The notes: generated by a model not told the origin, from the sequence alone. A DNA stretch of 64,000 bases from the human T2T-CHM13v2.0 reference genome, Homo sapiens (GCA_009914755.4 CP086569.2:30880001-30944000), one strand, 5' to 3'. Positions 14,230-63,570 are shown, numbered from the stretch's first letter. Numbers and translations are program-made.

Positions 14230-17200
14230 ATGGAATCGAATGGAAAGGACTCGAATGGAAATCACTCGAATAGAATGCAATTTAATAAAATAGGATCAAA
14301 TGTAATGGAATGGAATGGAAAGGAATCGAAACGAAAGGAATGGAGACAGATGGAACGGAATGGAACAGAGAGCAATGGCATAGAATGGAATGGAATCATC
14401 TGGAATGGAATTGAATGGAATGGAATAATATGAAATGGAATGGAATGGAATGGAATGGAATGCCCTTGAATTAAATGGACTGGACTCGAACAGAGTGGAA
14501 TGGAAAGTGTTGAGATAGAATGGAATGGACTCCTTTGGAATGGTCTAGTATGCAATGCAATCGACGGGCAGGGAATCAAAAGGAATGTAATGGAATGGAT
14601 AGGACTGGAATGCAATGGACTCGAATAGATTGGAAAAGGAATGCAAAGGAATGTAATGGAATAATATGGAATGGAAAGAAATGGAATGGAAAGGATTCGA
14701 ATGGAATGCAATCGAATGGAATGGAATCGAACGGAATAGAATAAAATGGAAGAAAACTGCCAAGAAATGGAATCGAAATGAATGGAGTGTTATGGAAGGG
14801 ACTCAAAAGGAATTGAATGTAATAGAATGGAGTGGAGTGGAGTCGAATATAATGGACTGGAATGGAATGAAATCACATGGAATGGGAACGAATGGAATGG
14901 AATGGAAAGGAATGGAATCGAATGGAAAGGAATCGAATAGAAGGGAATGAAATTGAATCAACAGGAATGGAAGGGAATAGAATAGGCTGTAATGGAATGG
15001 ACTCGAATAGAATGGACACGAAGGCTCAAATTAAATGGACTCGAATGGAATGGAAACGAAAGGAATGTCATCGAATGGAATTGAATCGATTGGAATGAAA
15101 TCGCATAGAATGGAGTGGAATCAAATGGAATTGAATCGAAAGGAAAGGAAGCGAATGGACTGAAACGAAATGGAATGGAATTGAATGGAAAGTAATGCAA
15201 TGGAATAGAATGGAACGAAATTTCACGGAATGGAATCAAACTGAATGGAATCAAATCAATGGAATCAAATCAAATGGAATGGAAAGGAATTGAATGGAGT
15301 AGATTGGATTGGATGGGATTGGAATGAAATGTACTGGAAAGGACTCGAATTTCATGAAACGGAATGGAATGAATTGGAACGGAATGGACTCGAATGGAAT
15401 GGAATGTCATGGAATGGCATCAAATGGAATGGCATCAAATGGAATGGAATCGAATGCAATGGAATGCTATGGAATGGAATGGAATGCATTGGAATGGAAT
15501 GTCCTCTAATGGAATGGATTCGAGTGGAATGGAATCGAATATAATGGAGTCGAATGAAATGGAATTGAAAGGAATGGGATCGAATACAATGGAATATACT
15601 GGAATGTAACGTAATGAACTCGAATGTAATTGACTGGAATGGAATGTACATGAATGGAATGTAATTGAATGGAAAGTAATCCAATGGAATAGAATCTAAT
15701 GCAATAAAATCGACTCAGATAGAGTAGAATGTAATGGAATGGAGTGCAGTGCAATGGAATGGAACGGAATGGAATGCAATGGAATGGAATGGAATGGGAT
15801 GGAATGGAATGGAATGGAATGGGATGGAATTGTATGGAATGGATAGTAATGGACTGGAGTGAAATGGACTGGAAAGGAATGGACTCAAATTGAAAGGGCT
15901 CGAAAGGAATGGAGTCAAATGGAATGGTCTGGAATGGAATGAACACGAATGTAATGCAACCCAATAGAATGGAATCGAATGGCATGGAATATAAAGAAAT
16001 GGAATCGAAGAGAATGGAAACAAATGGAATGGAATTGAATGGAATGGAATTGAATGGAATGGGAACGAATGGAGTGAAATTGTATGCAGTAGAAGAGAAT
16101 AGAATGGAATGCAAGCGAAAGGAAAGGAATGGATTGGAATGGAATGGAATTCATTGGAATGGAAGGGAATGTAGTGTAATGGACAGGCCTGGAATAAAGT
16201 GGAATGATACGGTCTCGAATGGAATAAAAATGTATGGAATGGAATGCAATGAAACGGAATCGAATGTCATAGAATGTAATGGAATGCAAAAAAATGGAAT
16301 CCAAAATCATTGACTGGAAAGGCTGGGTGTCGAAAGGAATTGACTCCAATGGAATGGAATCGAATGGAATGGAAGTGAATAGAATCGAACTAAATCGAAT
16401 GGAATGGAATTGATAGGAACGGAATGGAAAGGAATGCAATGATTTGGCATGGAATGGAATCGAATGGCATCGAATGGAATGGAATGGAATGCAATGGAAT
16501 GGAATGTATTAGAATGTAATGAACTTTAATGGAATGTACTCGAATGGATTCGACTGGAATGGAATGTTCTGGAAGTAAATGGACTCCAATGGAATGGATT
16601 CAAAAGGAATGGAATCGTACGGAATGGAATCTAATGGAATGGAATTAAATGGAAATGAATCAAATTGAATAGCACGGAATTGAATTGAATGGAATGGAAT
16701 GCAATGGAATCTAATGAAACGGAAAGGAAAGGAATGGAATGGAATGGAATGGGCTGGAATGGAAAGGAATCGAAACGAATGGAATGGAATCGAACTGAAG
16801 AGACTGGAATGGAATGCACTGGAATGGAAGGGAGTGTAATGGAAGGTTCTCGAAAAAAATGGAATCGAATGGAATGCAATTGAATGGAACGGAATAGAGT
16901 CGAATGCAATTGAATGGAATGGAATGGACTAGAGTGAAATGGAATCGAACCACAAGGAATGGACAGGAATAGAATGGTCTCGAATTGAATGGAATAGTAT
17001 GGAATGGCATCAAACGGAATGGAATGGACAGCCACGGAATGGAATGCACTCGAATGCAATGGAGTCGAAACTAATGGACTGGAATAGAATGGACTCGACT
17101 GGTACGGACTCCAGTGGAATGGAATCGAATGGAAGGGAATCGAACGGAATGGACTCGAAGGGAAAAGACTGCAATGGAAAGGTCTCGAATGGAATGGAAA

Positions 17201-17343
17201 TTAATGGAATGGAATGGAATCGAATGAAATGGAGTCAAAAGGAATGGAATCGAATGGCAAGAAATCGAATGTAAAGGAATCGCAAGGAATTGATGTGAAC
17301 GGAACGGAATGGAATGGAATCCAAAGGAATGGAATAGAATGGA
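14230..17343 (+). repeat. HOR unit 5 (3114 bp; carries a ~450 bp internal deletion)
   Basis: Landmark at 14230. The next, mutated landmark ('atggaatcgaatgCaaaggactcg') is at 17344. GGCC at 16187–16190 lies only ~1957 bp after the landmark, against ~2401 bp in full units. Around 14640–14670 the sequence jumps from unit offset ~435 ('…gactcgaatagattggaaaaggaatgcaaaggaatg') directly to offset ~890 ('…aatggaatggaaaggattcgaatggaatgcaatcg'). Confidence 0.8.
14640..14670. other. Breakpoint of a ~450 bp intra-unit deletion in unit 5
   Basis: Direct comparison of 14581–14700 with 421–500 and 921–990 of unit 1. Sequence from offset ~435 is followed directly by sequence from offset ~890. Confidence 0.65.
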
Positions 17344-19460
17344 ATGGAATCGAATGCAAAGGACTCGAATGGAAATCACTCGAATAGAATGCAATTTAAT
17401 AAAATAGGATCAAATATAATGGAATGGAATGGAAAGGAATCGAAACGAAAGGAATGGAGACAGATGGAATGGAATGGAACAGAGAGCAATGGTATAGAAT
17501 GGAATGGAATCATCTAGAATGTAATTGAATGGAATGGAATAATATGAAATGGAATGGAATGGAATGGAATGCCCTTGAATTAAATGGACTGGAATGGAAT
17601 GGACTCGAACAGAGTGGAATGGAAAGTGTTGAGATAGAATGGAATGGACTCCTTTGGAATGGTGTAGTATGCAATGCAATCGACTGACAGGGAATCAAAA
17701 GGAATGTAATCGAATGGATTGGACTGGAATGCAATGGACTCGAATAGATTGGAAACGGAATGCAAAGGAATGGAATGGAATAGTATGGAATGGAATGGAA
17801 AGGAATGGAGTGGAATAGACTAGAGTGGAATGGAATGGACTCGAAAGCAATGGACTGGAATGGAACTTTCTTGAATGGACTGGAACCAAACGGAATGGAA
17901 TGCAATGCAATCAAATGGCATGGAATAAGATAGAATGAAAGAGAATCAAATGGAATTGAATGGAATGGAATCGAATGGATTGGAAAGGAATAGAATGGAA
18001 TGGAATGGAATTGACTCAAATGGAATGGACTAGAATGGAATGGATTCGAATGGAAGGCAAAGGAATGGAATCTATTGGAATGGACTGTAATGGAATGCAA
18101 TGGAAGGGATTGGAATGGACTCGAATGGAATGGACTGCAATAGAAAGGATTCGAATGGAATGAAAAAGAATTGAATGGAATAGAACAGAATGGAATCAAA
18201 TCGAATGAAATGGAATGGAATAGAAAGGAATGGAATGAAATGGAATGGAAAGGATTCGAATGGAATGCAATCGAATGGAATGGAATCGAACGGAATGGAA
18301 TAAAATGGAAGAAAACTGGCAAGAAATGGAATCGAAATGAATGGAGTGTTATGGAACGGACTCAAAAGGAATTGAATGTAATAGAATGGAGTGGAGTGGA
18401 CTCGAATATAATGGACTGGAATGGAATGAAATCACATGGAAAGGGAAAGAATGGAATGGAATGGAAAGGAATGGAATTGAATGGAAAGCAATCGAACGGA
18501 AGGGAATGAAATTGAATCAACAGGAATGGAAGGGAATAGAATAGACGGTAATGGAATGGACTCTAATAGAATGGACACGAATGCTCAAATTGATTGGACT
18601 CGAATGGAATGGATACGAAAGGAATGTCATCGAATGGAATTGAATCGATTGGAATGAAATTGCATAGAATGGAGTGGAATCAAATGGAATTGAATCGAAA
18701 GGAAAGGAAGCGAATGGACTGAAATGAAATGGAATGGAATTGAATGGAAAGTAATGCAATGGAATAGAATGGAACGAAATTTCACGGAATGGAATCAAAC
18801 TGAATGGAATCAAATCAATGGAATCAAATCAAATGGAATGGAAAGGAATTGAATGGAGTAGATGGGATTGGATGAGATTGGAATGAAATGTACCGGAAAG
18901 GACTCGAATTTCATGAAACGGAATGGAATGAATTGGAACGGAATGGACACGAATGGAATGGAATGTCATGGAATGGCATCAAATGGAATGGCATCAAATG
19001 GAATGGAATCGAATGCAATGGAATGCTATGGAATGGAATGGAATGCATTGGAATGGAATGTCCTCTAATGGAATGGATTCGAGTGGAATGGAATCGAATA
19101 TAATGGAGTCGAATTAAATGGAATTGAAAGGAATGGGACCGAATACAATGGAATATACTGGAATGTAATGTAATGAACTCGAATGTAATTGACTGGAATG
19201 GAATGTACATGAATGGAATGTAATCGAATGGAAAGTAATCCAATGGAATAGAATCTAATGCAATAAAATCGACTCAAATAGAGTAGAATGTAATGGAATG
19301 GAGTGCAGTGCAATGGAATGGAATGGAATGGAATGCAATGGAATGGAATGGAATGGAATGGAATGGGATGGAATGGGATGGAATGGATAGTAATGGACTG
19401 GAGTGAAATGGACTGGAAAGGAATGGACTCAAATGGAAAGGGCTCGAAAGGAATGGAGAC
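17344..19460 (+). repeat. HOR unit 6a: unit truncated at offset ~2.12 kb (left half of composite unit 6)
   Basis: Starts with the variant landmark (atgCaaagg). It runs collinear with full units up to '…aaagggctcgaaaggaatggag' (equivalent to 2160–2180 of unit 1). It lacks the canonical GGCC site, which would fall at offset ~2400. Confidence 0.75.
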
Positions 19461-19480
19461 AAATGGAATGGAATGGAACA
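19440..19480. other. Homology-mediated junction joining unit offset ~2130 to offset ~115. Creates composite unit 6.
   Basis: The junction reads '…aaagggctcgaaaggaatggagACAAatggaatggaatggaacagagagc…'. The left parent has 'ggaatggagTCAAatggaatggtctgg' (about 2180 of unit 1). The right parent has 'ggaatggagACAGatggaatggaatagaacagagagc' (about 165 of unit 1). The hybrid 'gagACAAatgg' sits inside ~20 bp of shared near-identity. Confidence 0.7.
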
Positions 19481-22400
19481 GAGAGCAATGGTATAGAATG
19501 GAATGGAATCATCTGGAATGGAATTGAATGGAATGGAATAATATGAAATGGAATGGAATGGAATGGAATGGAATGCCCTTGAATTAAATGGACTGGAATG
19601 GAATGGACTCGAACAGAGTGGAATGGAAAGTGTTGAGATAGAATGGAATGGACTCTTTTAGAATGGTCTAGTATGCAATGCAATCGACTGGCAGGGAATC
19701 AAAGGAATGTAATCGAATGGATTGGACTGGAATGCAATGGACTCGAATAGATTGGAAACGGAATGCAAAGGAATGGAATGGAATAGTATGGAATGGAATG
19801 GAAAGGAATGGAGTGGAATAGACTAGAGTGGAATGGAATGGCCTGGAAAGCAATGGACTGGAATGGAACTTTCTTGAATGGACTGGAATCAAACGGAATG
19901 GAATGCAATGCAATCAAATGGCATGGAATAAAATAGAATGAAAGAGAATCAAATGGAATTGAATCGAATGGAATCGAATGGATTGGAAAGGAATAGAATG
20001 GAATGGAATGGAATTGACTCAAATGGAATGGACTAGAATGGAATGGATTCGAATGGAAGGCAAAGGAATGGAATCTATTGGAATGGACAGTAATGGAATG
20101 GAATGGAAGGGATTGGAATGGACTCGAATGGAATGGACTGCAATAGAAAGGATTCGAATGGAATGAAAAAGAATTGAATGGAATAGAACAGAATGGAATC
20201 AAATCGAATGAAATGGAATGGAATAGAAAGGAATGGAATGAAATGGAATGGAAAGGATTCGAATGGAATGCAATCGAATGGAATGGAATCGAACGGAATG
20301 GAATAAAATGGAAGAAAACTGGCAAGAAATGGAATCGAAATGAATGGAGTGTTATGGAACGGACTCAAAAGGAATTGAATGTAATAGAATGGAGTGGAGT
20401 GGACTCGAATATAATGGACTGGAATGGAATGAAATCACATGGAATGGGAACGAATGGAATGGAATGGAAAGGAATGGAATCGAATGGAAAGGAATCGAAT
20501 GGAAGGGAATGAAATTGAATCAACAGGAATGGAAGGGAATAGAATAGACGGTAATGGAATGGACTCGAATAGAATGGACACGAATGCTCAAATTAAATGG
20601 ACTCGAATGGAATGGAAACGAAAAGAATGTCATCGAATGGAATTGAATCGATTGGAATGAAATCGCATAGAATGGAGTGGAATCAAATGGAATTGAATCG
20701 AAAGGAAAGGAAGCGAATGGACTGAAATGAAATGGAATGGAATTGAATGGAAAGTAATGCAATGGAATAGAATGGAACGAAATTTCACGGAATGGAATCA
20801 AACTGAATGGAATCAAATCAATGGAATCAAATCAAATGGAATGGAAAGGAATTGAATGGAGTAGATTGGATTGGATGGGATTGGAATGAAATGTACTGGA
20901 AAGGACTCGAATTTCATGAAACGGAATGGAATGAATTGGAACGGAATGGACTCGAATGGAATGGAATGTCATGGAATGGCATCAAATGGAATGGCATCAA
21001 ATGGAATGGAATCGAATGCAATGGAATGCTATGGAATGGAATGGAATGCATTGGAATGGAATGTCCTCTAATGGAATGGATTCGAGTGGAATGGAATCGA
21101 ATATAATGGAGTCGAATGAAATGGAATTGAAAGGAATGGGATCGAATACAATGGAATATACTGGAATGTAATGTAATGAACTCGAATGTAATTGACTGGA
21201 ATGGAATGTACATGAATGGAATGTAATCGAATGGAAAGTAATCCAATGGAATAGAATCTAATGCAATAAAATCGACTCAGATAGAGTAGAATGTAATGGA
21301 ATGGAGTGCAGTGCAATGGAATGGAATGGAATGGAATGCAATGGAATGGAATGGAATGGAATGGAATGGAATGGAATGGAATGGAATGGGATGGAATGGT
21401 ATGGAATGGATAGTAATGGACTGGAGTGAAATGGACTGGAAAGGAATGGACTCAAATTGAAAGGGCTCGAAAGGAATGGAGTCAAATGGAATGGTCTGGA
21501 ATGGAATGAACACGAATGTAATGCAATCCAATAGAATGGAATCGAATGGCATGGAATATAAAGAAATGGAATCGAAGAGAATGGAAACAAATGGAATGGA
21601 ATTGAATGGAATGGAATTGAATGGAATGGGAACGAATGGAGTGAAATTGTATGCAGTAGAAGGGAATAGAATGGAATGCAAGCGAAAGGAAAGGAATGGA
21701 TTGGAATGGAATGGAATTCATTGGAATGGAAGGGAATGTAGTGTAATGGACAGGCCTGGAATAAAGTGGAATGCTACGGTCTCGAATGGAATAAAAATGT
21801 ATGGAATGGAATGCAATGAAACGGAATCGAATGTCATAGAATGTAATGGAATGCAACAAAATGGAATCCAAAATCATTGACTGGAAAGGCTGGGTGTCGA
21901 AAGGAATTGACTCCAATGGAATGGAATCGAATGGAATGGAAGTGAATAGAATCGAACTAAATCGAATGGAATGGAATTGATAGGAACGGAATGGAAAGGA
22001 ATGCAATGATTTGGCATGGAATGGAATCGAATGGCATCGAATGGAATGGAATGGAATGCAATGGAATGGAATGTATTAGAATGGAATGAACTTTAATGGA
22101 ATGTACTCGAATGGATTCGACTGGAATGGAATGTTCTGAAAGTGAATGGACTCCAATGGAATGGATTCAAAAGGAATGGAATCGTACGGAATGGAATCTA
22201 ATGGAATGGAATTAAATGGAATTGAATCAAATTCAATAGCACGGAATTGAATTGAATGGAATGGAATGCAATGGAATCTAATGAAACGGAAAGGAAAGGA
22301 ATGGAATGGAATGGAATGGGCTGGAATGGAAAGGAATCGAAACGAATGGAATGGAATCGAACTGAAGAGACTGGAATGGAATGCACTGGAATGGAAGGGA

Positions 22401-22910
22401 GTGTAATGGAAGGTTCTCGAAAAAAATGGAATCGAATGGAATGGAATTGAATGGAACGGAATAGAGTCGAATGGAATTGAATGGAATGGAATGGACTAGA
22501 GTGAAATGGATTCGAACCACAAGGAATGGACAGGAATAGAATGGTCTCGAATTGAATGGAATCGTATGGAATGGCATCAAACGGAATGGAATGGACAGCC
22601 ACGGAATGGAATGCACTCGAATGCAATGGAGTCGAAACTAATGGACTGGAATAGAATGGACTCGACTGGTACGGACTCCAATGGAATGGAATCGAATGGA
22701 AGGGAATCGAACGGAATGGACTCGAAGGGAAAAGACTGCAATGGAAAGGTCTCGAATGGAATGGAAATTAATGGAATGGAATGGAATCGAATGAAATGGA
22801 GTCAAAAGGAATGGAATCGAATGGCAAGAAATCGAATGTAATGGAATCGCAAGGAATTGATGTGAACGGAACGGAATGGAATGGAATCCAAAGGAATGGA
22901 ATAGAATGGA
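19461..22910 (+). repeat. HOR unit 6b: unit restarting at offset ~115 (right half of composite unit 6). Composite total is 5567 bp.
   Basis: After the junction 'ggaatggagACAaatggaatggaatggaacagagagcaatggtatag', the sequence continues as offsets ~115 to 3558 of a normal unit. It has an extra variant GGCC at 19850–19853 ('aatggCctggaaagc' where other units have 'aatggActggaaagc'). Canonical GGCC at 21753–21756. Confidence 0.75.
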
Positions 22911-25900
22911 ATGGAATCGAATGGAAAGGACTCGAATGGAAATCACTCGAATAGAATGCAATTTAATAAAATAGGATCAAATGTAATGGAATGGAACGGA
23001 AAGGAATCGAAACGAAAGGAATGGAGACAGATGGAATGGAATGGAACAGAGAGCAATGGTATAGAATGGAATGGAATCATCTGGAATGGAATTGAATGGA
23101 ATGGAATAATATGAAATGGAATGGAATGGAATGGAATGGAATGCCCTTGAATTAAATGGACTGGAATGGAATGGACTCGAACAGAGTGGAATGGAAAGTG
23201 TTGAGATAGAATGGAATGGACTCCTTTGGAATGGTGTAGTATGCAATGCAATCGACTGGCAGGGAATCAAAAGGAATGTAATCGAATGGATTGGACTGGA
23301 ATGCAATGGACTCGAATAGATTGGAAACGGAATGCAAAGGAATGGAATGGAATAGTATGGAATGGAATGGAAAGGAATGGAGTGGAATAGACTAGAGTGG
23401 AATGGAATGGACTGGAAAGCAATGGACTGGAATGGAACTTTCTTGAATGGACTGGAATCAAACGGAATGGAATGCAATGCAATCAAATGGCATGGAATAA
23501 AATAGAATGAAAGAGAATCAAATGGAATTGAATCGAATGGAATCGAATGGATTGTAAAGGAATAGAATGGAATGGAATGGAATTGACTCAAATGGAATGG
23601 ATTAGAATGGAATGGATTCGAATGGAAGGCAAAGGAATGGAATCTATTGGAATGGACTGTAATGGAATGGAATGGAAGGGATTGGAATGGACTCGAATGG
23701 AATGGACTGCAATAGAAAGGATTCGAATGGAATGAAAAAGAATTGAATGGAATAGAACAGAATGGAATCAAATCGAATGAAATGGAATGGAATAGAAAGG
23801 AATGGAATGAAATGGAATGGAAAGGATTCGAATGGAATGCAATCGAATGGAATGGAATCGAACGGAATGGAATAAAATGGAAGAAAACTGGCAAGAAATG
23901 GAATCGAAATGAATGGAGTGTTATGGAACGGAGTCAAAAGGAATTGAATGTAATAGAATGGAGTGGAGTGGACTCGAATATAATGGACTGGAATGGAATG
24001 AAATCACATGGAATGGGAACGAATGGAATGGAATGGAAAGGAATGGAATCGAATGGAAAGGAATCGAATGGAAGGGAATGAAATTGAATCAACAGGAATG
24101 GAAGGGAATAGAATAGACTGTAATGGAATGGACTCGAATAGAATGGACACGAATGCTCAAATTGAATGGACTCGAATGGAATGGAAACGAAAGGAATGTC
24201 ATCGAATGGAATTGAATCGATTGGAATGAAATCGCATAGAATGGAGTGGAATCAAATGGAATTGAATCGAAAGGAAAGGAAGCGAATGGACTGAAATGAA
24301 ATGGAATGGAATTGAATGGAAAGTAATGCAATGGAATAGAATGGAACGAAATTTCACGGAATGGAATCAAACTGAATGGAATCAAATCAATGGAATCAAA
24401 TCAAATGGAATGGAAAGGAATTGAATGGAGTAGATTGGATTGGATGGGATTGGAATGAAATGTACTGGAAAGGACTCGAATTTCATGAAACGGAATGGAA
24501 TGAATTGGAACGGAATGGACTCGAATGGAATGGAATGTCATGGAATGGCATCAAATGGAATGGAATCAAATGGAATGGAATCGAATGCAATGGAATGCTA
24601 TGGAATGGAATGGAATGCATTGGAATGGAATGTCCTCTAATGGAATGGATTCGAGTGGAATGGAATCGAATATAATGGAGTCGAATGAAATGGAATTGAA
24701 AGGAATGGGATCGAATACAATGGAATATACTGGAATGTAATGTAATGAACTCGAATGTAATTGACTGGAATGGAATGTACATGAATGGAATGTAATCGAA
24801 TGGAAAGTAATCCAATGGAAGAGAATCTAATGCAATAAAATCGACTCAGATAGAGTAGAATGTAATGGAATGGAGTACAGTGCAATGGAATGGAATGGAA
24901 TGGAATGCAATTGAATGGAATGGAATGGAATGGAATGCAATGGAATGGGATGGAATGGTATGGAATGGATAGTAATGGACTGGAGTGAAATGGACTGGAA
25001 AGGAATGGACTCAAATTCAAAGGGCTCGAAAGGAATGGAGTCAAATGGAATGGTCTGGAATGGAATGAACACGAATGTAATGCAATCCAATAGAATGGAA
25101 TCGAATGGCATGGAATATAAAGAAATGGAATCGAAGAGAATGGAAACAAATGGAATGGAATTGAATGGAATGTAATTGAATGGAATGGGAATGAATGGAG
25201 TGAAATTGTATGCAGTAGAAGGGTATAGAATTGAATGCAAGCGAAAGGAAAGGAATGGATTGGAATGGAATGGAATTCATTGGAATGGAAGGGAATGTAG
25301 TGTAATGGACAGGCCTGGAATAAAGTGGAATGCTACGGTCTCGAATGGAATAAAAATGTATGGAATGGAATGCAATGAAACGGAATCGAATGTCATAGAA
25401 TGTAATGGAATGCAAAAAAATGGAATCCAAAATCATTGACTGGAAAGGCTGGGTGTCGAAAGGAATTGACTCCAATGGAATGGAATCGAATGGAATGGAA
25501 GTGAATAGAATCGAACTAAATCGAATGGAATGGAATTGATAGGAACGGAATGGAAAGGAATGCAATGATTTGGCATGGAATGCAATCGAATGGCATCGAA
25601 TGGAATGGAATGGAATGCAATGGAATGGAATGTATTAGAATGGAATGAACTTTAAAGGAATGTACTCGAATGGATTCGACTGGAATGGAATGTTCTGGAA
25701 GTGAATGGACTCCAATGGAATGGATTCAAAAGGAATGGAATCGTACGGAATGGAATCTAATGGAATGAAATTAAATGGAAATGAATCAAATTGAATAGCA
25801 CGGAATTGAATTGAATGGAATGGAATGCAATGGAATCTAATGAAACGGAAAGGAAAGGAATGGAATGGAATGGAATGGGCTGGAATGGAAAGGAATCGAA

Positions 25901-49800: not shown

Positions 49801-52800
49801 ATGGAATCGAATGGAAAGGACTCGAATGGAAATCACTCGAATAGAATGCAATTTAATAAAATAGGATCAAATGTAATGGAATGGAATGGAAAGGAATCGA
49901 AACGAAAGGAATGGAGACAGATGGAATGGAATGGAACAGAGAGCAATGGTATAGAATGGAATGGAATCATCTGGAATGGAATTGAATGGAATGGAATAAT
50001 ATGAAATGGAATGGAATGGAATGGAATGGAATGCCCTTGAATTAAATGGACTGGACTCGAACAGAGTGGAATGGAAAGTGTTGAGATAGAATGGAATGGA
50101 CTCCTTTGGAATGGTGTAGTATGTAATGCAATCGACTGGCAGGGAATCAAAAGGAATGTAATCGAATGGATTGGACTGGAATGCAATGGACTCGAATAGA
50201 TTGGAAACGGAATGCAAAGGAATGGAATGGAATAGTATGGAATGCAATGGAAAGGAATGGAGTGGAATAGACTAGAGTGGAATGGAATGGACTGGAAAGC
50301 AATGGACTGGAATGGAACTTTCTTGAATGGACTGGAATCAAACGGAATGGAATGCAATGCAATCAAATGGCATGGAATAAAATAGAATGAAAGAGAATCA
50401 AATGGAATTGAATCGAATGGAATCGAATGGATTGGAAAGGAATAGAATGGAATGGAATGGAATTGACTCAAATGGAATGGACTAGAATGGAATGGATTCG
50501 AATGGAAGGCAAAGGAATGGAATCTATTGGAATGGACTGTAATGGAATGGAATGGAAGGGATTGGAATGGACTCGAATGGAATGGACTGCAATAGAAAGG
50601 ATTCGAATGGAATGAAAAAGAATTGAATGGAATAGAACAGAATGGAATCAAATCGAATGAAATGGAATGGAATAGAAAGGAATGGAATGAAATGGAATGG
50701 AAAGGATTCGAATGGAATGCAATCGAATGGAATGGAATCGAACGGAATGGAATAAAATGGAAGAAAACTGGCAAGAAATGGAATCGAAATGAATGGAGTG
50801 TTATGGAACGGAGTCAAAAGGAATTGAATGTAATAGAATGGAGTGGAGTGGACTCGAATATAATGGACTGGAATGGAATGAAATCACATGGAATGGGAAC
50901 GAATGGAATGGAATGGAAAGGAATGGAATCGAATGGAAAGGAATCGAATGGAAGGGAATGAAATTGAATCAACAGGAATGGAAGGGAATAGAATAGATGG
51001 TAATGGAATGGACTCGAATAGAATGGACACGAATGCTCAAATTGAATGGACTCGAATGGAATGGAAACGAAAGGAATGTCATCGAATGGAATTGAATCGA
51101 TTGGAATGAAATCGCATAGAATGGAGTGGAATCAAATGGAATTGAATCGAAAGGAAAGGAAGCGAATGGACTGAAATGAAATGGAATGGAATTGAATGGA
51201 AAGTAATGCAATGGAATAGAATGGAACGAAATTTCACGGAATGGAATCAAACTGAATGGAATCAAATCAATGGAATCAAATCAAATGGAATGGAAAGGAA
51301 TTGAATGGAGTAGATTGGATTGGATGGGATTGGAATGAAATGTACTGGAAAGGACTCGAATTTCATGAAACGGAATGGAATGAATTGGAACGGAATGGAC
51401 TCGAATGGAATGGAATGTCATGGAATGGCATCAAATGGAATGGAATCAAATGGAATGGAATCGAATGCAATGGAATGCTATGGAATGGAATGGAATGCAT
51501 TGGAATGGAATGTCCTCTAATGGAATGGATTCGAGTGGAATGGAATCGAATATAATGGAGTCGAATGAAATGGAATTGAAAGGAATGGGATCGAATACAA
51601 TGGAATATACTGGAATGTAATGTAATGAACTCGAATGTAATTGACTGGAATGGAATGTACATGAATGGAATGTAATCGAATGGAAAGTAATCCAATGGAA
51701 TAGAATCTAATGCAATAAAATCGACTCAGATAGAGTAGAATGTAATGGAATGGAGTGCAGTGCAATGGAATGGAATGGAATGGAATGCAATGAAATGGAA
51801 TGGAATGGAATGGAATGGAATGGAATGGGATGGAATGGTATGGAATGGATAGTAATGGACTGGAGTGAAATGGACTGGAAAGGAATGGACTCAAATTGAA
51901 AGGGCTCGAAAGGAATGGAGTCAAATGGAATGGTCTGGAATGGAATGAACACGAATGTAATGCAATCCAATAGAATGGAATCGAATGGCATGGAATATAA
52001 AGAAATGGAATCGAAGAGAATGGAAACAAATGGAATGGAATTGAATGGAATGGAATTGAATGGAATGGGAATGAATGGAGTGAAATTGTATGCAGTAGAA
52101 GGGAATAGAATGGAATGCAAGCGAAAGGAAAGGAATGGATTGGAATGGAATGGAATTCATTGGAATGGAAGGGAATGTAGTGTAATGGACAGGCCTGGAA
52201 TAAAGTGGAATGCTACGGTCTCGAATGGAATAAAAATGTATGGAATGGAATGCAATGAAACGGAATCGAATGTCATAGAATGTAATGGAATGCAAAAAAA
52301 TGGAATCCAAAATCATTGACTGGAAAGGCTGGGTGTCGAAAGGAATTGACTCCAATGGAATGGAATCGAATGGAATGGAAGTGAATAGAATCGAACTAAA
52401 TCGAATGGAATGGAATTGATAGGAACGGAATGGAAAGGAATGCAATGATTTGGCATGGAATGGAATCGAATGGCATCGAATGGAATGGAATGGAATGCAA
52501 TGGAATGGAATGTATTAGAATGTAATGAACTTTAATGGAATGTACTCGAATGGATTCGACTGGAATGGAATGTTCTGGAAGTGAATGGACTCCAATGGAA
52601 TGGATTCAAAAGGAATGGAATCGTACGGAATGGAATCTAATGGAATGGAATTAAATGGAAATGAATCAAATTGAATAGCACGGAATTGAATTGAATGGAA
52701 TGGAATGCAATGGAATCTAATGAAATGGAAAGGAAAGGAATGGAATGGAATGGAATGGGCTGGAATGGAAAGGAATCGAAACGAATGGAATGGAATCGAA

Positions 52801-53349
52801 CTGAAGAGACTGGAATGGAATGCACTGGAATGGAAGGGAGTGTAATGGAAGGTTCTCGACAAAAATGGAATCGAATGGAATGGAATTGAATGGAACGGAA
52901 TAGAGTCGAATGGAATTGAATGGAATGGAATGGACTAGAGTGAAATGGAATCGAACCACAAGGAATGGACAGGAATAGAATGGTCTCGAATTGAATGGAA
53001 TCGTATGGAATGGCATCAAACGGAATGGAATGGACAGCCACGGAATGGAATGCACTCGAATGCAATGGAGTCGAAACTAATGGACTGGAATAGAATGGAC
53101 TCGACTGGTACGGACTCCAATGGAATGGAATCGAATGGAAGGGAATCGAACAGAATGGACTCGAAGGGAAAAGACTGCAATGGAAAGGTCTCGAATGGAA
53201 TGGAAATTAATGGAATGGAATGGAATCGAATGAAATGGAGTCAAAAGGAATGGAATCGAATGGCAAGAAATCGAATGTAATGGAATCGCAAGGAATTGAT
53301 GTGAACGGAACGGAATGGAATGGAATCCAAAGGAATGGAATAGAATGGA
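49801..53349 (+). repeat. HOR unit 14 (3549 bp, variant A')
   Basis: Landmarks at 49801 and 53350. GGCC at 52192–52195. Confidence 0.85.
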
Positions 53350-56300
53350 ATGGAATCGAATGGAAAGGACTCGAATGGAAATCACTCGAATAGAATGCAA
53401 TTTAATAAAATAGGATCAAATGTAATGGAATGGAATGGAAAGGAATCGAAACGAAAGGAATGGAGACAGATGGAATGGAATGGAACAGAGAGCAATGGTA
53501 TAGAATGGAATGGAATCATCTGGAATGGAATTGAATGGAATGGAATAATATGAAATGGAATGGAATGGAATGCCCTTGAATTAAATGGACTGGACTCGAA
53601 TAGAGTGGAATGGAAAGTTTTGAGATAGAATGGAATGGACCCCTTTGGAATGGTCTAGTATGCAATGCAATCGACTGGCAGGGAATCAAAAGGAATGTAA
53701 TCGAATGGATTGGACTGGAAAGCAATGGACTCGAATAGATTGGAAACGGAATGCAAAGGAATGGAATGGAATAGTATGGAATGGAATGGAAGGGAATGGA
53801 GTGGAATAGACTAGAGTGGAATGGAATGGACTGGAAAGCAATGGACTGGAATCGAACATTCTTGAATGGACTGGAATCAAACGGAATGGAATGCAATGCA
53901 ATCAAATGGCATGGAATAAAATAGAATGAAAGAGAATCAAATGGAATTGAATCGAATGGAATCGAATGGATTGGAAAGGAATAGAATGGAATGGAATGGA
54001 ATTGACTCAAATGGAATGGACTAGAATGGAATGGATTCGAATGGAAGGCAAAGGAATGGAATCTATTGGAATGGACTGTAATGGAATGGAATGGAAGGGA
54101 TTGGAATGGACTCGAATGGAATGGACTGCAATAGAAAGGATTCGAATGGAATGAAAAAGAATTGAATGGAATAGAACAGAATGGAATCAAATCGAATGAA
54201 ATGGAATGGAATAGAAAGGAATGGAATGAAATGGAATGGAAAGGATTCGAATGGAATGCAATCGAATGGAATGGAATCGAACGGAATGGAATAAAATGGA
54301 AGAAAACAGGCAAGAAATGGAATCGAAAGGAATGGAGTGTTATGGAACGGACTCAAAAGGAATTGAATGTAATAGAATGGAGTGGAGTGGACTCGAATAT
54401 AATGGACTGGAATGGAATGAAATCACATGGAATGGGAACGAATGGAATGGAATGGAAAGGAATGGAATCGAATGGAAAGGAATCGAATGGAAGGGAATGA
54501 AATTGAATCAACAGGAATGGAAGGGAATAGAATAGACGGTAATGGAATGGACTCGAATAGAATGGACACGAATGCTCAAATTGAATGGACTCGAATGGAA
54601 TGGAAACGAAAGGAATGTCATCGAATGGAATTGAATCGATTGGAATGAAATCGCATAGAATGGAGTGGAATCAAATGGAATTGAATCGAAAGGAAAGGAA
54701 GCGAATGGACTGAAATGAAATGGAATGGAATTGAATGGAAAGTAATGCAATGGAATAGAAGGGAACGAAATTTCACGGAATGGAATCAAACTGAATGGAA
54801 TCAAATCAATGGAATCAAATCAAATGGAATGGAAAGGAATTGAATGGAGTAGATTGGATTGCATGGGATTGGAATGAAATGTACTGGAAAGGACTCGAAT
54901 TTCATGAAACGGAATGGAATGAATTGGAACGGAATGGACTCGAATGGAATGGAATGTCATGGAATGGCATCAAATGGAATGGCATCAAATGGAATGGAAT
55001 CGAATGCAATGGAATGCTATGGAATGGAATTGAATGCATTGGAATGGAATGTCCTCTAATGGAATGGATTCGAGTGGAATGGAATCGAATATAATGGAGT
55101 CGAATGAAATGGAATTGAAAGGAATGGGATCGAATACAATGGAATATACTGGAATGTAATGTAATGAACACGAATGTAACTGACTGGAATGGAATGTACA
55201 TGAATGGAATGTAATCGAAAGGAAAGTAATCCAATGGAATAGAATCTAATGCAATAAAATCGACTCAGATAGAGTAGAATGTAATGGAATGGAGTGCAGT
55301 GCAATGCAATGGAATGGAATGGAATGCAATGGAATGGAATGGAATGGAATGGAATGGAATGGAATGGAATGGAATGGGATGGAATGGTATGGAATGGATA
55401 GTAATGGACTGGAGTGAAATGGACTGGAAAGGAATGGACTCAAATTGAAAGGGCTCGAAAGGAATGGAGTCAAATGGAATGGTCTGGAATGGAATGAACA
55501 CGAATGTAATGCAATCCAATAGAATGGAATCGAATGGCATGGAATATAAAGAAATGGAATCGAAGAGAATGGAAACAAATGGAATGGAATTGAATGGAAT
55601 GGGAACGAATGGAGTGAAATTGTATGCAGTAGAAGGGAATAGAATGGAATGCAAGCGAAAGGAAAGGAATGGATTGGAATGGAATGGAATTCATTGGAAT
55701 GGAAGGGAATGTAGTGTAATGGACAGGCCTGGAATAAAGTGGAATGCTACGGTCTCGAATGGAATAAAAATGTATGGAATGGAATGCAATGAAACGGAAT
55801 CGAATGTCATAGAATGTAATGGAATGCAAAAAAATGGAATCCAAAATCATTGACTGGAAAGGCTGGGTGTCGAAAGGAATTGACTCCAATGGAATGGAAT
55901 CGAATGGAGTGGAAGTGAATAGAATCGAACTAAATCGAATGGAATGGAATTGATAGGAACGGAATGGAAAGGAATGCAATGATTTGGCACGGAATGGAAT
56001 CGAATGGCATCGAATGGAATGGAATGGAATGCAATGGAATGGAACGTATTAGAATGTAATGAACTTTAATGGAATGTACTCGAATGGATTCGACTGGAAT
56101 GGAATGTTCTGGAAGTGAATGGACTCCAATGGAATGGATTCAAAAGGAATGGAATCGTACGGAATGGAATCTAATGGAATGGAATTAAATGGAAATGAAT
56201 CAAATTGAATAGCATGGAATTGAATTGAATGGAATCGAATGCAATGGAATCTAATGAAACGGAAAGGAAAGGAATGGAATGGAATGGAATGGGCTGGAAT

Positions 56301-56883
56301 GGAAAGGAATCGAAACGAATGGAATGGAATCGAACTGAAGAGACTGGAATGGAATGCACTGGAATGGAAGGGAGTGTAATGGAAGGTTCTCGAAAAAAAT
56401 GGAATCGAATGGAATGGAATTGAATGGAACGGAATAGAGTCGAATGGAATTGAATGGAATGGAATGGACTAGAGTGAAATGGAATCGAACCACAAGGAAT
56501 GGACAGGAATAGAATGGTCTCGAATTGAATGGAATCGTATGGAATGGCATCAAACGGAATGGAATGGACAGCCACGGAATGGAATGCACTCGAATGCAAT
56601 GGAGTCGAAACTAATGGACTGGAATAGAATGGACTCGACTGGTACGGACTCCAATGGAATGGAATCGAATGGAAGGGAATCGAACGGAATGGACTCGAAG
56701 GGAAAAGACTGCAATGGAAAGGTCTCGAATGGAATGGAAATAAATGGAATGGAATGGAATCGAATGAAATGGAGTCAAAAGGAATGGAATCGAATGGCAA
56801 GAAATCGAATGTAATGGAATCGCAAGGAATTGATGTGAACGGAACGGAATGGAATGGAATCCAAAGGAATGGAATAGAATGGA
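53350..56883 (+). repeat. HOR unit 15 (3534 bp, variant B)
   Basis: Landmarks at 53350 and 56884. GGCC at 55726–55729. Matches unit 8 (offset 26880). Confidence 0.85.
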
Positions 56884-59800
56884 ATGGAATCGAATGGAAA
56901 GGACTCGAATGGAAATCACTCGAATAGAATGCAATTTAATAAAATAGGACCAAATGTAATGGAATGGAATGGAAAGGAATCGAAACGAAAGGAATGGAGA
57001 CAGATGGAATGGAATGGAACAGAGAGCAATGGTATAGAATGGAATGGAATCATCTGGAATGGAATTGAATGGAATGGAATAATATGAAATGGAATGGAAT
57101 GGAATGGAATGGAATGCCCTTGAATTAAATGGACTGGAATGGAATGGACTCGAACAGAGTGGAATGGAAAGTGTTGAGATAGAATGGAATGGACTCGTTA
57201 GGAATGGTCTAGTAGGCAATGCAATCGACTGGCAGGGAATCAAAAGGAATGTAATCGAATGGATTGGACAGGAATGCAATGGACTCGAATAGATTGCAAA
57301 CGGAATGCAAAGGAATGGAATGGAATAGTATGGAATGGAATGGAAAGGAATGGAGTAGAATAGACTAGAGTGGAATGGAATGGACTGGAAAGAAATGGAC
57401 TGGAATGGAACTTTCTTGAATGGACTGGAATCAAACGGAATGGAATGCAATGCAATCAAATGGCATGGAATAAAATAGAATGAAAGAGAATCAAATGGAA
57501 TTGAATCGAATGGAATCGAATGGATTGGAAAGGAATAGAATGGAATGGAATGGAATGGACTAGAATGGAATGGATTCGAATGGAAGGCAAAGGAATGGAA
57601 TCTATTGGAATGGACTGTAATGGAATGGAATGGAAGGGATTGGAATGGACTCGAATGGAATGGACTGCAATAGAAAGGATTCGAATGGAATGAAAAAGAA
57701 TTGAATGGAATAGAACAGAATGGAATCAAATCGAATGAAATGGAATGGAATAGAAAGGAATGGAATGAAATGGAATGGAAAGGATTCGAATGGAATGCAA
57801 TCGAATGGAATGGAATCGAACGGAATGGAATAAAATGGAAGAAAACTGGCAAGAAATGGAATCGAAATGAATGGAGTGTTATGGAACGGACTCAAAAGGA
57901 ATTGAATGTAATAGAATGGAGTGGAGTGGACTCGAATATAATGGACTGGAATGGAATGAAATCACATGGAATGGGAACGAATGGAATGGAATGGAAAGGA
58001 ATGGAATCGAATGGAAAGGAATCGAATGGAAGGGAATGAAATTGAATCAACAGGAATGGAAGGGAATAGAATAGACGGTAATGGAATGGACTCGAATAGA
58101 ATGGACACGAATGCTCAAATTGAATGGACTCGAATGGAATGGAAACGAAAGGAATGTCATCGAATGGAATTGAATCGATTGGAATGAAATCGCATAGAAT
58201 GGAGTGGAATCAAATGGAATTGAATCGAAAGCAAAGGAAGCGAATGGACTGAAATGAAATGGAATGGAATTGAATGGAAAGTAATGCAATGGAATAGAAT
58301 GGAACGAAATTTCACGGAATGGAATCAAACTGAATGGAATCAAATCAATGGAATCAAATCAAATGGAATGGAAAGGAATTGAATGGAGTAGATTGGATTG
58401 GATGGGATTGGAATGAAATGTACTGGAAAGGACTCGAATTTCATGAAACGGAATGGAATGAATTGGAACGGAATGGACTCGAATGGAATGGAATGTCATG
58501 GAATGGCATCAAATGGAATGGCATCAAATGGAATGGAATCGAATGCAATGGAATGCTATGGAATGGAATGGAATGCATTGGAATGGAATGTCCTCTAATG
58601 GAATGGATTCGAGTGGAATGGAATCGAATATAATGGAGTCGAATGAAATGGAATTGAAAGGAATGGGATCGAATACAATGGAATATACTGGAATGTAATG
58701 TAATGAACTCGAATGTAATTGACTGGAATGGAATGTACATGAATGGAATGTAATCGAATGGAAAGTAATCCAATGGAATAGAATCTAATGCAATAAAATC
58801 GACTCAGATAGAGTAGAATGTAATGGAATGGAGTGCAGTGCAATGGAATGGAATGGAATGGAATGCAATTGAATGGAATGGAATGGAATGGAATGGAATG
58901 GAATGGAATGGAATGGAATGGGATGGAATGGTATGGAATGGATAGTAATGGACTGGAGTGAAATGGACTGGAAAGGAATGGACTCAAATTGAAAGGGCTC
59001 GAAAGGAATGGAGTCAAATGGAATGGTCTGGAATGGAATGAACACGAATGTAATGCAATCCAATAGAATGGAATCGAATGGCATGGAATATAAAGAAATG
59101 GAATCGGAGAGAATGGAAACAAATGGAATGGAATTGAATGGAATGGGAACGAATGGAGTGAAATTGTATGCAGTAGAAGGGAATAGAATGGAATGCAAGC
59201 GAAAGGAAAGGAATGGATTGGAATGGAATGGAATTCATTGGAATGGAAGGGAATGTAGTGTAATGGACAGGCCTGGAATAAAGTGGAATGCTACGGTCTC
59301 GAATGGAATAAAAATGTATGGAATGGAATGCAATGAAACGGAATCGAATGTCATAGAATGTAATGGAATGCAAAAAAATGGAATCCAAAATCATTGACTG
59401 GAAAGGCTGGGTGTCGAAAGGAATTGACTCCAATGGAATGGAATCGAATGGAATGGAAGTGAATAGAATCGAACTAAATCGAATGGAATTTAATTGATAG
59501 GAACGGAATGGAAAGGAATGCAATGATTTGGCATGGAATGGAATCGAATGACATCGAATGGAATGGAATGGAATGCAATGGAATGGAACGTATTAGAATG
59601 TAATGAACTTTAATGGAATGTACTTGAATGGATTCGACTGGAATGGAATGTTCTGGAAGTGAATGGACTCCAATGGAATGGATTCAAAAGGAATGGAATC
59701 GTACGGAATGGAATCTAATGGAATGGAATTAAATGGAAATGAATCAAATTGAATAGCACGGAATTGAATTGAATGGAATGGAATGCAATGGAATCTAATG

Positions 59801-63400: not shown

Positions 63401-63558
63401 AATGGAAAGGAATCGAAACGAATGGAATGGAATCGAACTGAAGAGACTGGAATGGAATGCACTGGAATGGAAGGGAGTGTAATGGAAGGTTCTCGAAAAA
63501 AATGGAATCGAATGGAATGGAATTGAATGGAACGGAATAGAGTCGAATGGAATTGAAT
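60413..63558 (+). repeat. HOR unit 17 (variant A), truncated at offset ~3140 by a deletion that removes the unit boundary
   Basis: Landmark at 60413. GGCC at 62829–62832. Collinear with unit 1 until 'ggaatagagtcgaatggaattgaatggaatggaat' (~63530–63566). It then continues as 'aatatgaaatggaatggaatggaatggaatgcccttgaattaaatgg', which is offset ~190 of a unit. Confidence 0.75.
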
Positions 63559-63570
63559 GGAATGGAATAA
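63545..63570. other. Junction of a ~0.6 kb deletion spanning a unit boundary (offset ~3140 joined to offset ~190 of the next unit)
   Basis: The breakpoint lies within the 20-mer 'ggaattgaatggaatggaat', which occurs at both parental positions (about 3178 and about 227 of unit 1). Confidence 0.65.

What the first reader, a model, noticed from the sequence alone, without database searches (positions are those of the whole stretch)
14230..59300. Mosaic of long intra-array segmental duplications: distant multi-unit blocks are more alike than adjacent units
Using the artefactual ORF translations as sequence fingerprints, three block pairs emerge. Block 14.65–21.25 kb matches 34.42–41.0 kb at offset 19,772 bp; for example, ORFs 17510..18322 and 37282..38094 differ at 2 of 270 residues, and both blocks contain the composite junction. 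Block 21.25–26.6 kb matches 44.6–50.0 kb at offset 23,331 bp; the 134-aa ORFs 21277..21681 and 44608..45012 are identical. Block 26.5–32 kb matches 53.4–59 kb at offset 26,880 bp; the 413-aa ORFs differ at one residue. The offsets step up by one unit length each time (3559 and 3549 bp). So a ~17.5 kb ancestral segment appears as a ~24.6 kb copy carrying two extra single units at ~41.0–44.6 kb and ~50.0–53.5 kb. Copies are about 99.7–99.9% identical, while neighbouring units differ noticeably more. This is the signature of recent unequal-exchange amplification with unit-number change. The drift of the offset by 10 or 20 bp (19772, 19762, 19792) reflects pentamer-tract length differences.
Basis: seen in the sequence. 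Interest (0 to 1): 0.6.

Follow-up and report, generated by a model that had tools for sequence, protein, structure and literature searches.

The report
Local block duplication in Y-chromosome satellite
The window is a stretch of the human Y-chromosome DYZ1 satellite in which a 16–23 kb block of several repeat units is present twice at about 99.8% identity, the ordinary footprint of unequal exchange in satellite DNA.

Summary
All 64 kb is GGAAT-pentamer satellite arranged in about 3.55-kb units. It carries the markers of DYZ1/HSat3A6, the human Yq12 satellite.

Three off-diagonal stripes at +19,772, +23,331 and +26,880 bp dominate the self-comparison. Refined blocks are:
- 15209-21336 matching 34981-41108
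- 21273-26692 matching 44604-50023
- 27017-31127 matching 53897-58007

Together they show 26 mismatches in 15,595 bp (99.83% identity). In-phase unit pairs elsewhere differ by about 1.5% at every distance. Both copies share a rare 2,003-bp intra-unit duplication, with identical junctions found only at 19440 and 39212.

- The blocks are shorter than stated: 15.9 kb versus 23.0 kb.
- A 3.85-kb spacer with no close partner separates the copies, so one simple tandem duplication does not explain the structure.
- The first "extra" unit (41109-44603) does not resemble its neighbours. That favours loss from the proximal copy over gain in the distal copy.

Gene-conversion patches are also present.

Multi-unit duplication by unequal exchange in Yq12 has already been published (T2T-Y and 43-Y assemblies; pedigree studies). 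This is an ordinary, known feature of low interest.

The parts
1..64000 (+). DYZ1 / HSat3A6 satellite array. The + strand reads GGAAT, which is antisense to the published TTCCA unit. It holds 17 units of about 3.52-3.57 kb plus partial units. Unit starts: 70, 3628, 7151, 10710, 14244, 17358, 22925, 26484, 30018, 33567, 37130, 42687, 46256, 49815, 53364, 56898, 60427.
   Evidence: TRF finds a pentamer-derived array over 9-64000. GC is 0.38-0.40 with constant skew. Anchor k-mer spacing defines the units. The HSat3A6-specific 24-mer occurs 29 times while the 13 other HSat2/3 subfamily 24-mers occur 0 times; DYZ1 primers match once per unit; HaeIII fragments are 3523-3569 bp.
15209..31127 (+). Proximal copy (copy 1) of the duplicated segment, 15.9 kb: 3' part of U5, composite U6, U7, U8 and 5' part of U9.
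   Evidence: Mismatch density against the partner falls from about 3% to about 0.2% at 15209 and rises to about 1.2% after 31127.
34981..58007 (+). Distal copy (copy 2), 23.0 kb: 3' part of U10, composite U11, U12-U15 and 5' part of U16.
   Evidence: Copy 1 coordinates plus offsets 19772, 23331 and 26880.
15209..21336 (+). Block A, matching 34981-41108 (offset 19772). 12 mismatches in 6128 bp, including a 2442-bp exact run at 18895-21336.
21273..26692 (+). Block B, matching 44604-50023 (offset 23331). 10 mismatches in 5420 bp. It overlaps block A by 64 bp (21273-21336), which is identical to both partners and marks the exchange interval.
27017..31127 (+). Block C, matching 53897-58007 (offset 26880). 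4 mismatches in 4111 bp.
41109..44603 (+). Unit-length segment present only in copy 2 (3' part of U11b plus 5' part of U12). It is not closely related to its neighbours.
   Evidence: The nearest relatives are 1.40% away for 41109-42686 and 0.73% away for 42687-44603. The haplotype table shows variants not shared with U6b, U7 or U13.
50024..53572 (+). Second unit-length segment present only in copy 2 (essentially U14). Its placement is ambiguous by 420 bp, because 26273-26692 is identical to both partners. U14 is a mosaic: 50246-51756 is 0.13% from U13, whereas 51757-53363 is 0.68% or more from every unit.
31128..34980 (+). Spacer between the two copies (one unit plus about 300 bp) with no high-identity partner.
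   Evidence: The nearest relatives are 0.99% away (31128-33566) and 0.85% away (33567-34980). Divergence at offset 26880 is about 1.1%.
19440..19486 (+). Junction of the 2003-bp intra-unit partial duplication that makes U6 a 5567-bp composite. The sequence runs from unit position about 2105 back to about 105, across roughly 30 bp of similarity (CGAAAGGAATGGAG.CA.ATGGAATGG).
   Evidence: Self-match at offset 2003 over 17690-19389. Phase map. Junction sequences. The 47-mer occurs only twice in the window.
39212..39258 (+). Identical composite junction in copy 2 (U11, 5557 bp). It is a shared derived structural marker showing that the two A blocks are paralogous.
26721..27016 (+). Patch where the copies (partner 53601-53896) differ at 14 of 296 sites (4.7%), each carrying its own private variants. 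It is most simply a gene-conversion tract from an unsampled donor in one copy.
   Evidence: The variant haplotypes are not seen in 39 external DYZ1 loci.

Best explanation
The window is part of a DYZ1 (HSat3A6) array of the human Yq12 heterochromatin.

Within it, a block of several 3.55-kb units was duplicated in direct, in-phase orientation. The block already contained a rare 5.56-kb composite unit. The duplication most likely arose by unequal exchange between misaligned sister chromatids, because the male-specific Y has no homologue.

Later events of the same kind then modified the two copies:
- One-unit exchanges inside stretches identical between neighbouring units (64 bp at 21273-21336 and 420 bp at 26273-26692) left the proximal copy two units shorter than the distal copy. 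At least the first of these was probably a loss from the proximal copy.
- A further exchange or replacement removed the partner of the 3.85-kb spacer.
- Short gene-conversion tracts and point mutations produced the 0.17% divergence.

Using the pedigree-measured Yq12 mutation rate, the duplication is roughly 2,000 generations old (tens of thousands of years).

Shown here: the identity of the satellite, the paralogy of the blocks, the breakpoints and the mismatch pattern. Inferred: the mechanism, the order of events, the direction of unit change and the age.
For: Identity of the satellite:
- The array is derived from the GGAAT pentamer.
- Units are 3.52-3.57 kb.
- GC is 38-39%, against 38% reported for DYZ1 (10.1101/2022.12.01.518658).
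- Only the HSat3A6-specific 24-mer of PMC4022460 Table 1 is present: 29 exact matches, against 0 for each of the 13 other subfamilies.
- DYZ1 primers C, D, E and F of PMC3925983 match exactly once per unit.
- There is one HaeIII site per unit.
- A full unit is 98.9-99.4% identical to contigs from metagenome assemblies, and 98.9% identical over 2360 bp to a contaminant contig in a bacterial genome assembly.

Paralogy of the blocks:
- Offset peaks and long exact runs lie on the three diagonals.
- There are 26 mismatches in 15,595 bp, against a background of about 1.5% that is flat with distance.
- The composite junction is shared and occurs only twice.
- Private haplotypes are shared between U5/U10, U6a/U11a, U6b/U11b, U6b/U12, U7/U13, U8/U15 and U9/U16.

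Loss from copy 1: the first extra unit is 0.73-1.4% from all other units, so it is not a recent local duplicate.

Conversion:
- The two U7 variants 25583C and 25656A are shared only with U17.
- There is a 296-bp patch at 4.7% divergence.

Literature:
- Tandem duplications consistent with unequal exchange, and sister-chromatid exchanges, are reported in Yq12 (10.1101/2022.12.01.518724).
- The Yq12 SNV rate is 3.86e-7 per bp per generation.
- 29% of Yq12 de novo changes look like conversion.
- About one whole-unit structural variant arises per transmission (PMC12240836).
Against: - The copies are not adjacent, as a single unequal crossover would leave them. A 3.85-kb spacer lacks a partner, so at least one further event must be assumed.
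- Mismatch density is uneven: 0.42% in 15209-17357 against 0.075% in 17358-21336.
- Derived alleles are lopsided. All 9 differences in U7/U13 are derived in U7, and 9 of 12 in block A are derived in copy 2. A single clock-like divergence does not predict this.
- The direction of the second unit difference is ambiguous.
- Chromosomal origin and read support could not be checked with these tools.
Confidence: 0.7

Rival explanations
1. One reading: one tandem duplication of a 17.5-kb segment by unequal exchange, after which the distal copy gained two single units by further unequal exchange.
For: The offsets step by one unit, 3559 and 3549 bp. The 5' 1.5 kb of U14 is 0.13% from its neighbour U13, as expected if U14 began as a local duplicate of U13.
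Against: A one-unit gain by local unequal exchange should produce a unit built from its neighbours. The first extra unit (41109-44603) is 1.4% and 0.73% from the nearest units and lacks the private variants of U6b, U7 and U13. The 3' 1.6 kb of U14 is 0.81% from U13. The copies are separated by an unmatched 3.85-kb spacer.
Confidence: 0.2
2. Non-reciprocal copying: a long-tract gene conversion or break-induced replication event copied a multi-unit tract onto an in-phase position about 20-27 kb away. Template switches at pentamer tracts skipped one unit twice. Array length need not change.
For: The copies are not adjacent, and both outer boundaries are sharp and in phase. Both register shifts sit in stretches identical between neighbouring units. 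Derived differences cluster in one copy per block, as error-prone repair synthesis might produce. Interlocus conversion is documented in Yq12 (PMC12240836).
Against: A conversion tract of 16-23 kb is far longer than the short patches seen here. The copy carrying the derived alleles switches between blocks A and B, which a single synthesis event does not predict. No direct evidence separates this model from reciprocal exchange followed by a later deletion.
Confidence: 0.2
3. Assembly artefact: a false duplication or mis-join produced by the assembler in a near-identical satellite.
For: Satellite arrays of more than 98% identity are the hardest regions to assemble, and error flags are concentrated there (10.64898/2026.06.03.729890).
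Against: The copies differ by 26 substitutions, a 296-bp divergent patch, a 10-bp indel and two whole units. They lie in different flanking contexts. A duplicated read path would give identical sequence.
Confidence: 0.05
4. A regular higher-order repeat: the DYZ1 array here is built from a recurring 5-7-unit super-unit, and the window happens to show two periods.
For: Two consecutive blocks have the same unit order.
Against: U1-U4 and U17 have no partner closer than 1.08%. Mean divergence is flat at about 1.5% for every other separation. The two blocks differ in unit number. The composite junction is absent from the metagenome contig collection, in which 33 stretches carry the DYZ1 HaeIII-site marker.
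Confidence: 0.03

Closest known systems
DYZ1 (HSat3A6) arrays of human Yq12, as described in the T2T-Y assembly and the 43-Y-chromosome study (10.1101/2022.12.01.518724; 10.1101/2022.12.01.518658)
   Same: - Pentamer-derived nested repeat of about 3.5-3.6 kb.
- About 38% GC.
- HaeIII unit of about 3.56 kb.
- Units mostly more than 98% identical.
- Recent tandem duplications attributed to unequal exchange.
- Frequent conversion and whole-unit structural changes.
   Different: The published descriptions stress duplications at the 100-kb to 5-Mb scale that span DYZ1/DYZ2 blocks, and centre-versus-edge homogenisation. This window shows the same process at the 16-23 kb scale inside a single array, resolved to breakpoints. 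The 2003-bp composite unit was not found described in the papers read.
Local multi-unit expansions in alpha-satellite higher-order-repeat arrays and other long tandem arrays evolving by unequal crossover and conversion (the classical unequal-crossover model of satellite evolution, recalled from general knowledge)
   Same: Distant blocks are more alike than adjacent repeats. Junctions are in phase. Unit number changes by whole repeats. Homogenisation is patchy.
   Different: The basic unit here is a 3.55-kb nested pentamer repeat, not a 171-bp monomer HOR. There is no centromere function. Exchange must be between sister chromatids or within one chromatid.
The 2.7-kb repeat of the DYZ18 region, which is partly derived from DYZ1 (10.1101/2022.12.01.518658)
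   Same: About 77% of that unit is 97% identical to DYZ1.
   Different: The unit length here is 3.52-3.57 kb over the full DYZ1 unit. There is no 2.7-kb periodicity.

Membership tests
DYZ1 / HSat3A6 (human Yq12 satellite) | Derived from the pentamer GGAAT/CATTC (TTCCA) | tested here: met
   TRF reports consensus units GAATGGAATGGAATC and (GAATG)9 over 9-64000.
DYZ1 / HSat3A6 (human Yq12 satellite) | Nested tandem unit of about 3.5-3.6 kb | tested here: met
   Anchor spacings are 3523-3569 bp. Offset peaks lie at 3534-3569 bp. The phase map agrees.
DYZ1 / HSat3A6 (human Yq12 satellite) | One HaeIII (GGCC) site per unit, giving the classical fragment of about 3.56 kb (3,569 bp is the most common length in assemblies) | tested here: met
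   There are 19 GGCC sites. Fragments are 3523-3569 bp, except in the deleted unit (3114 bp) and the composite units (3654+1913 and 3654+1903 bp).
DYZ1 / HSat3A6 (human Yq12 satellite) | Subfamily-specific 24-mer TCGTTTCGATTCCTTTCCATTCCA (PMC4022460 Table 1), with the marker 24-mers of the other subfamilies absent | tested here: met
   29 exact matches, and 0 exact matches for all 13 other HSat2/HSat3 subfamily 24-mers.
DYZ1 / HSat3A6 (human Yq12 satellite) | Published DYZ1 PCR primers anneal once per unit (PMC3925983 Table 5) | tested here: met
   Primers C, D, E and F match exactly 15-17 times. Primers A, B and G match with 1-2 mismatches 15-18 times. Primer H fails only because it differs by one base in length at the GGCC site. 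The Y1.1 and Y1.2 primers, recalled from memory and not found in the paper library, match exactly and span 154 bp.
DYZ1 / HSat3A6 (human Yq12 satellite) | Located on Yq12, male-specific, alternating with DYZ2 blocks | not testable with these tools
   No human reference is available here and no DYZ2 lies in the window. The small non-Y share of HSat3A6 listed in PMC4022460 (chromosome 7) cannot be formally excluded.
Regular higher-order repeat (super-unit periodicity) | The same multi-unit block recurs throughout the array at a fixed period | tested here: not met
   Only one pair of blocks exists. U1-U4 and U17 have no close partner. Divergence is flat at about 1.5% at other separations.
Simple tandem duplication by one unequal crossover | Two copies in direct orientation, in phase | tested here: met
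   GC skew is constant and all matches are on the + strand. Offsets are whole numbers of units, plus the 2003-bp insert for the block A offset.
Simple tandem duplication by one unequal crossover | The copies abut, and every base of the period has a partner | tested here: not met
   Positions 31128-34980 have no partner closer than 0.85-0.99%.

The most novel reading that the evidence does not exclude
The differences between the two copies are not clock-like. All nine differences in U7/U13 are derived in the proximal copy, while most differences in block A are derived in the distal copy. A 296-bp patch differs by 4.7%, and transversions outnumber transitions 16 to 10. The most novel reading not excluded is that multi-unit duplication in Yq12 proceeds by error-prone repair synthesis (break-induced replication with template switching), which leaves one-sided mutation clusters. 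In that case a share of the high Yq12 'mutation rate' would be a by-product of the duplication process itself.
Probability: 0.07. Interest if true: 0.45.

Novelty: already known. Interest (0 to 1): 0.12.

Why it matters
It matters little on its own. The window is a clear, base-resolved example of how the largest human heterochromatic block changes:
- multi-unit duplication;
- whole-unit gain or loss at stretches identical between neighbouring units;
- short conversion tracts.

The rare 2003-bp composite junction and the two block copies could serve as markers. They could be used to trace this array segment across Y haplogroups, or to check assemblies. The phenomenon and its mechanism are already described for Yq12.

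Tried and rejected
- A blastn tile search with word size 11 timed out. It was replaced by megablast tiles and direct diagonal mismatch counts.
- The paper library was searched for the recalled Y1.1 and Y1.2 primer sequences and gave no hits. Two papers opened for them were irrelevant. Membership therefore rests on the published 24-mers and primers of PMC4022460 and PMC3925983.
- The composite-junction 47-mer was scanned in metagenome contigs and gave 0 hits. A DYZ1 marker finds 33 stretches there and 6 in bacterial genome assemblies. The junction is therefore not a common DYZ1 variant, although most of those contigs are collapsed consensus units.
- Donors for the 26721-27016 patch haplotypes were sought among the 39 external loci. 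None was found: the best matches still carry 7-8 mismatches.
- Coding or RNA function was rejected. The Rfam scan gave no hits. The long minus-strand ORFs give only sub-threshold low-complexity Pfam matches (27-37 bits against a cut-off of 105).
- A simple local-duplication origin for the first extra unit was rejected on distances and haplotypes.
- A regular higher-order repeat was rejected.
- Block B seemed at first to end at 26693. That break is only a 10-bp pentamer indel. Apparent U8-U14 similarity beyond it reflects U14 being close to the consensus, not a special relationship.

Full report
WHAT THE SEQUENCE IS

The whole window is one tandem array derived from the pentamer GGAAT (TRF, 9-64000). 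GC is 38-40% and GC and AT skew are constant, so there are no inversions. Anchor k-mers recur every 3523-3569 bp, and a phase map against one reference unit gives 17 units plus partial units.

Three published criteria identify it as DYZ1, also called HSat3A6, the Y-specific HSat3 subfamily of Yq12:
- Of the 14 subfamily-specific 24-mers in Table 1 of Altemose et al. 2014 (PMC4022460), only the HSat3A6 one is present. It matches exactly 29 times, and the other 13 match 0 times.
- DYZ1 primers C, D, E and F of Yadav et al. 2014 (PMC3925983, Table 5) match exactly once per unit. Primers A, B and G match with 1-2 mismatches.
- There is one HaeIII site per unit, with fragments of 3523-3569 bp. This fits the classical 3.56-kb HaeIII unit and the modal 3,569-bp fragment in assembled Y chromosomes (10.1101/2022.12.01.518658).

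Two primers recalled from memory (Y1.1 and Y1.2) also match exactly and lie 154 bp apart. I could not confirm them in the paper library.

A full unit is 98.9-99.4% identical to contigs in metagenome assemblies. It is also 98.9% identical over 2360 bp to a contig filed under a bacterial genome. This matches the HSat3 contamination of microbial databases reported with T2T-Y (10.1101/2022.12.01.518724). Chromosomal location itself cannot be tested with these tools.

CHECKING THE OBSERVATION

A 40-mer offset histogram has its three largest peaks at 23331, 26880 and 19772 bp. These exceed even the adjacent-unit peaks. The six longest exact self-matches (2442, 1903, 1218, 965, 956 and 949 bp) all lie on these diagonals, and every other diagonal stops at 771 bp or less.

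Direct mismatch maps refine the blocks:
- Block A: 15209-21336 matches 34981-41108, with 12 mismatches in 6128 bp.
- Block B: 21273-26692 matches 44604-50023, with 10 mismatches in 5420 bp. It continues to about 26800 after a 10-bp pentamer indel.
- Block C: 27017-31127 matches 53897-58007, with 4 mismatches in 4111 bp.

Overall there are 26 mismatches in 15,595 bp, or 99.83% identity.

A MAFFT alignment of all units gives background substitution divergence of 0.9-2.9%. The mean is about 1.5% at every unit separation, with no decay with distance. The minima fall only at the three predicted separations. Of 869 one-kb comparisons, 18 are at or below 0.3% divergence, and 15 of those belong to the predicted pairs.

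Its outer edges (14.65-15.2 kb and 31.13-32 kb) are in register but only at background identity.

INDEPENDENT PROOF OF PARALOGY

U6 (17358-22924, 5567 bp) and U11 (37130-42686, 5557 bp) are composite units. The sequence runs from unit position 0 to about 2105 and then restarts at about 105, adding 2003 bp. The junction lies in about 30 bp of similarity between the two positions.

The 47-nt junction sequence occurs exactly twice in the window, at 19440 and 39212. It is absent from the metagenome contig collection, in which 33 stretches carry the DYZ1 HaeIII-site marker.

A table of parsimony-informative sites shows that each unit of copy 1 shares its private variants with the predicted unit of copy 2:
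- the 3' part of U5 with U10;
- U6a with U11a;
- the 5' part of U6b with U11b;
- the 3' part of U6b with U12;
- U7 with U13;
- U8 with U15;
- the 5' part of U9 with U16.

WHERE THE SIMPLE STORY FAILS

Four points depart from a simple tandem duplication followed by unit gain.

1. The copies are not adjacent. Positions 31128-34980 (one unit plus about 300 bp) have no partner closer than 0.85-0.99%. One unequal crossover would leave abutting copies, so a second event is needed. Candidates are a deletion truncating the distal copy's tail, a replacement, or a non-reciprocal copying mechanism.

2. The first extra unit does not look like a gain.
   - The A-to-B register shift lies in a 64-bp stretch (21273-21336) identical to both 41045-41108 and 44604-44667, next to a (GGAAT)9 tract.
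   - The unit present only in copy 2 (41109-44603) is 1.40% from its nearest relative in one half and 0.73% in the other. It lacks the private variants of its neighbours.
   - A one-unit gain by local unequal exchange would build the new unit from its neighbours. Loss from copy 1 is therefore the more parsimonious reading.

3. The second extra unit is ambiguous.
   - The second shift lies in a 420-bp stretch (26273-26692) identical to both partners.
   - The extra unit (U14) is a mosaic. Positions 50246-51756 are 0.13% from U13, while 51757-53363 are 0.68% or more from every unit. Direction cannot be decided.

4. Conversion has modified the copies.
   - At 26721-27016 the two copies differ at 14 of 296 sites, and each has private variants. 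One conversion tract from a donor outside the window is the simplest explanation, but no donor was found among 39 external loci.
   - The two U7 variants at 25583 and 25656 are shared only with U17, which indicates a short conversion tract.

MECHANISM AND AGE (INFERENCE)

Unequal sister-chromatid exchange, unit-scale exchange and interlocus conversion are the processes reported for Yq12:
- A four-generation pedigree gives 3.86e-7 SNVs per bp per generation in Yq12.
- In that pedigree, 29% of the changes matched non-orthologous sites.
- The pedigree also shows about one whole-unit structural variant per transmission (PMC12240836).

With that rate, 0.167% divergence corresponds to about 2,200 generations. 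The Poisson range is about 1,400-3,200 generations, or tens of thousands of years. With a euchromatic Y rate the age would be about ten times greater. Two unit-number changes in that time are unremarkable.

UNEXPLAINED DETAILS

- Derived alleles are balanced overall (13 in copy 1, 12 in copy 2) but lopsided by block. All 9 differences in U7/U13 are derived in U7, and 9 of 12 in block A are derived in copy 2.
- Mismatch density is uneven: 0.42% in 15209-17357 against 0.075% in 17358-21336.
- Transversions outnumber transitions, 16 to 10.

These may reflect conversion, unsampled further copies, or assembly noise. They leave a small chance of an error-prone copying mechanism.

NO OTHER FUNCTION

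There are no Rfam matches. The long minus-strand ORFs, up to 426 codons, give only sub-threshold low-complexity Pfam matches.

VERDICT

The finding is real and well observed. It is an instance of a known process in a known satellite, with modest corrections to its extent, adjacency and the direction of unit change. Novelty: already known. Interest: low.

Noticed in passing
window 17358-22924 and 37130-42686 (junctions 19440-19486 and 39212-39258): Two composite DYZ1 units of 5.56 kb carry a 2003-bp partial internal duplication. The sequence runs from unit position about 2105 back to about 105 across roughly 30 bp of similarity. The 5' part (U6a and U11a) is the most divergent unit type in the window, 1.6-2.9% from all others. 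The junction is absent from the metagenome contig collection, where 33 stretches carry a DYZ1 marker.
   Followed up: yes
window 19840 and 39612: Each composite unit has an extra HaeIII (GGCC) site. It splits the unit into fragments of 3654 and 1913 bp (U6) or 3654 and 1903 bp (U11), and the variant is shared by both copies.
   Followed up: partly
window 14673/14674 (unit U5): A deletion of about 430-441 bp relative to other units makes U5 3114 bp long. It lies just outside the left edge of the duplicated block and is not shared by U10.
   Followed up: partly
window 63544/63545: A 600-bp deletion spans a unit boundary. Its junction lies within a 24-bp direct repeat (GAATGGAATTGAATGGAATGGAAT) that is present at both breakpoints in intact units.
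   Followed up: partly
window 26721-27016 and 53601-53896: A 296-bp patch differs at 14 sites (4.7%) between copies that are otherwise 99.9% identical. Each copy carries its own private variants. This part of the unit is also about twice as variable as average among all units.
   Followed up: partly
window 22925-26483 versus 46256-49814, and 15209-19405 versus 34981-39177: The polarity of differences is lopsided. All 9 differences between U7 and U13 are derived in U7. In block A, 9 of 12 are derived in the distal copy. Transitions to transversions are 10 to 16 over the 26 differences.
   Followed up: partly
window 25583 and 25656 (U7), and the matching positions in U17: Two neighbouring variants, 73 bp apart, are shared only by U7 and U17. 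This suggests a short gene-conversion tract between units 37 kb apart.
   Followed up: partly
unit positions about 100-210 and about 1920-2105, for example window 21273-21387, 19440-19486 and 51757: Rearrangement breakpoints cluster at two places in the unit. Those involved are the A/B register shift, the composite junction, the U14 mosaic boundary, the B/C exchange interval and the end of the 600-bp deletion. Both places lie next to pentamer tracts that also carry most of the 5-25-bp length variation.
   Followed up: partly
loci L034-L039 (genome contigs): DYZ1 sequence occurs in contigs filed under bacterial genome assemblies, including Actinomadura cremea, Streptomyces spp., Streptosporangium and a Polyangiaceae MAG. 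For example, L036 is 98.9% identical to a window unit over its whole 2360 bp. This is human contamination of microbial records.
   Followed up: partly
window 29731-31011 (-), 56611-57891 (-) and 33619-34644 (-): Open reading frames of 341-426 codons lie on the CATTC strand. They give only sub-threshold Extensin-like and pentapeptide-repeat Pfam matches, and are artefacts of the repeat periodicity.
   Followed up: yes
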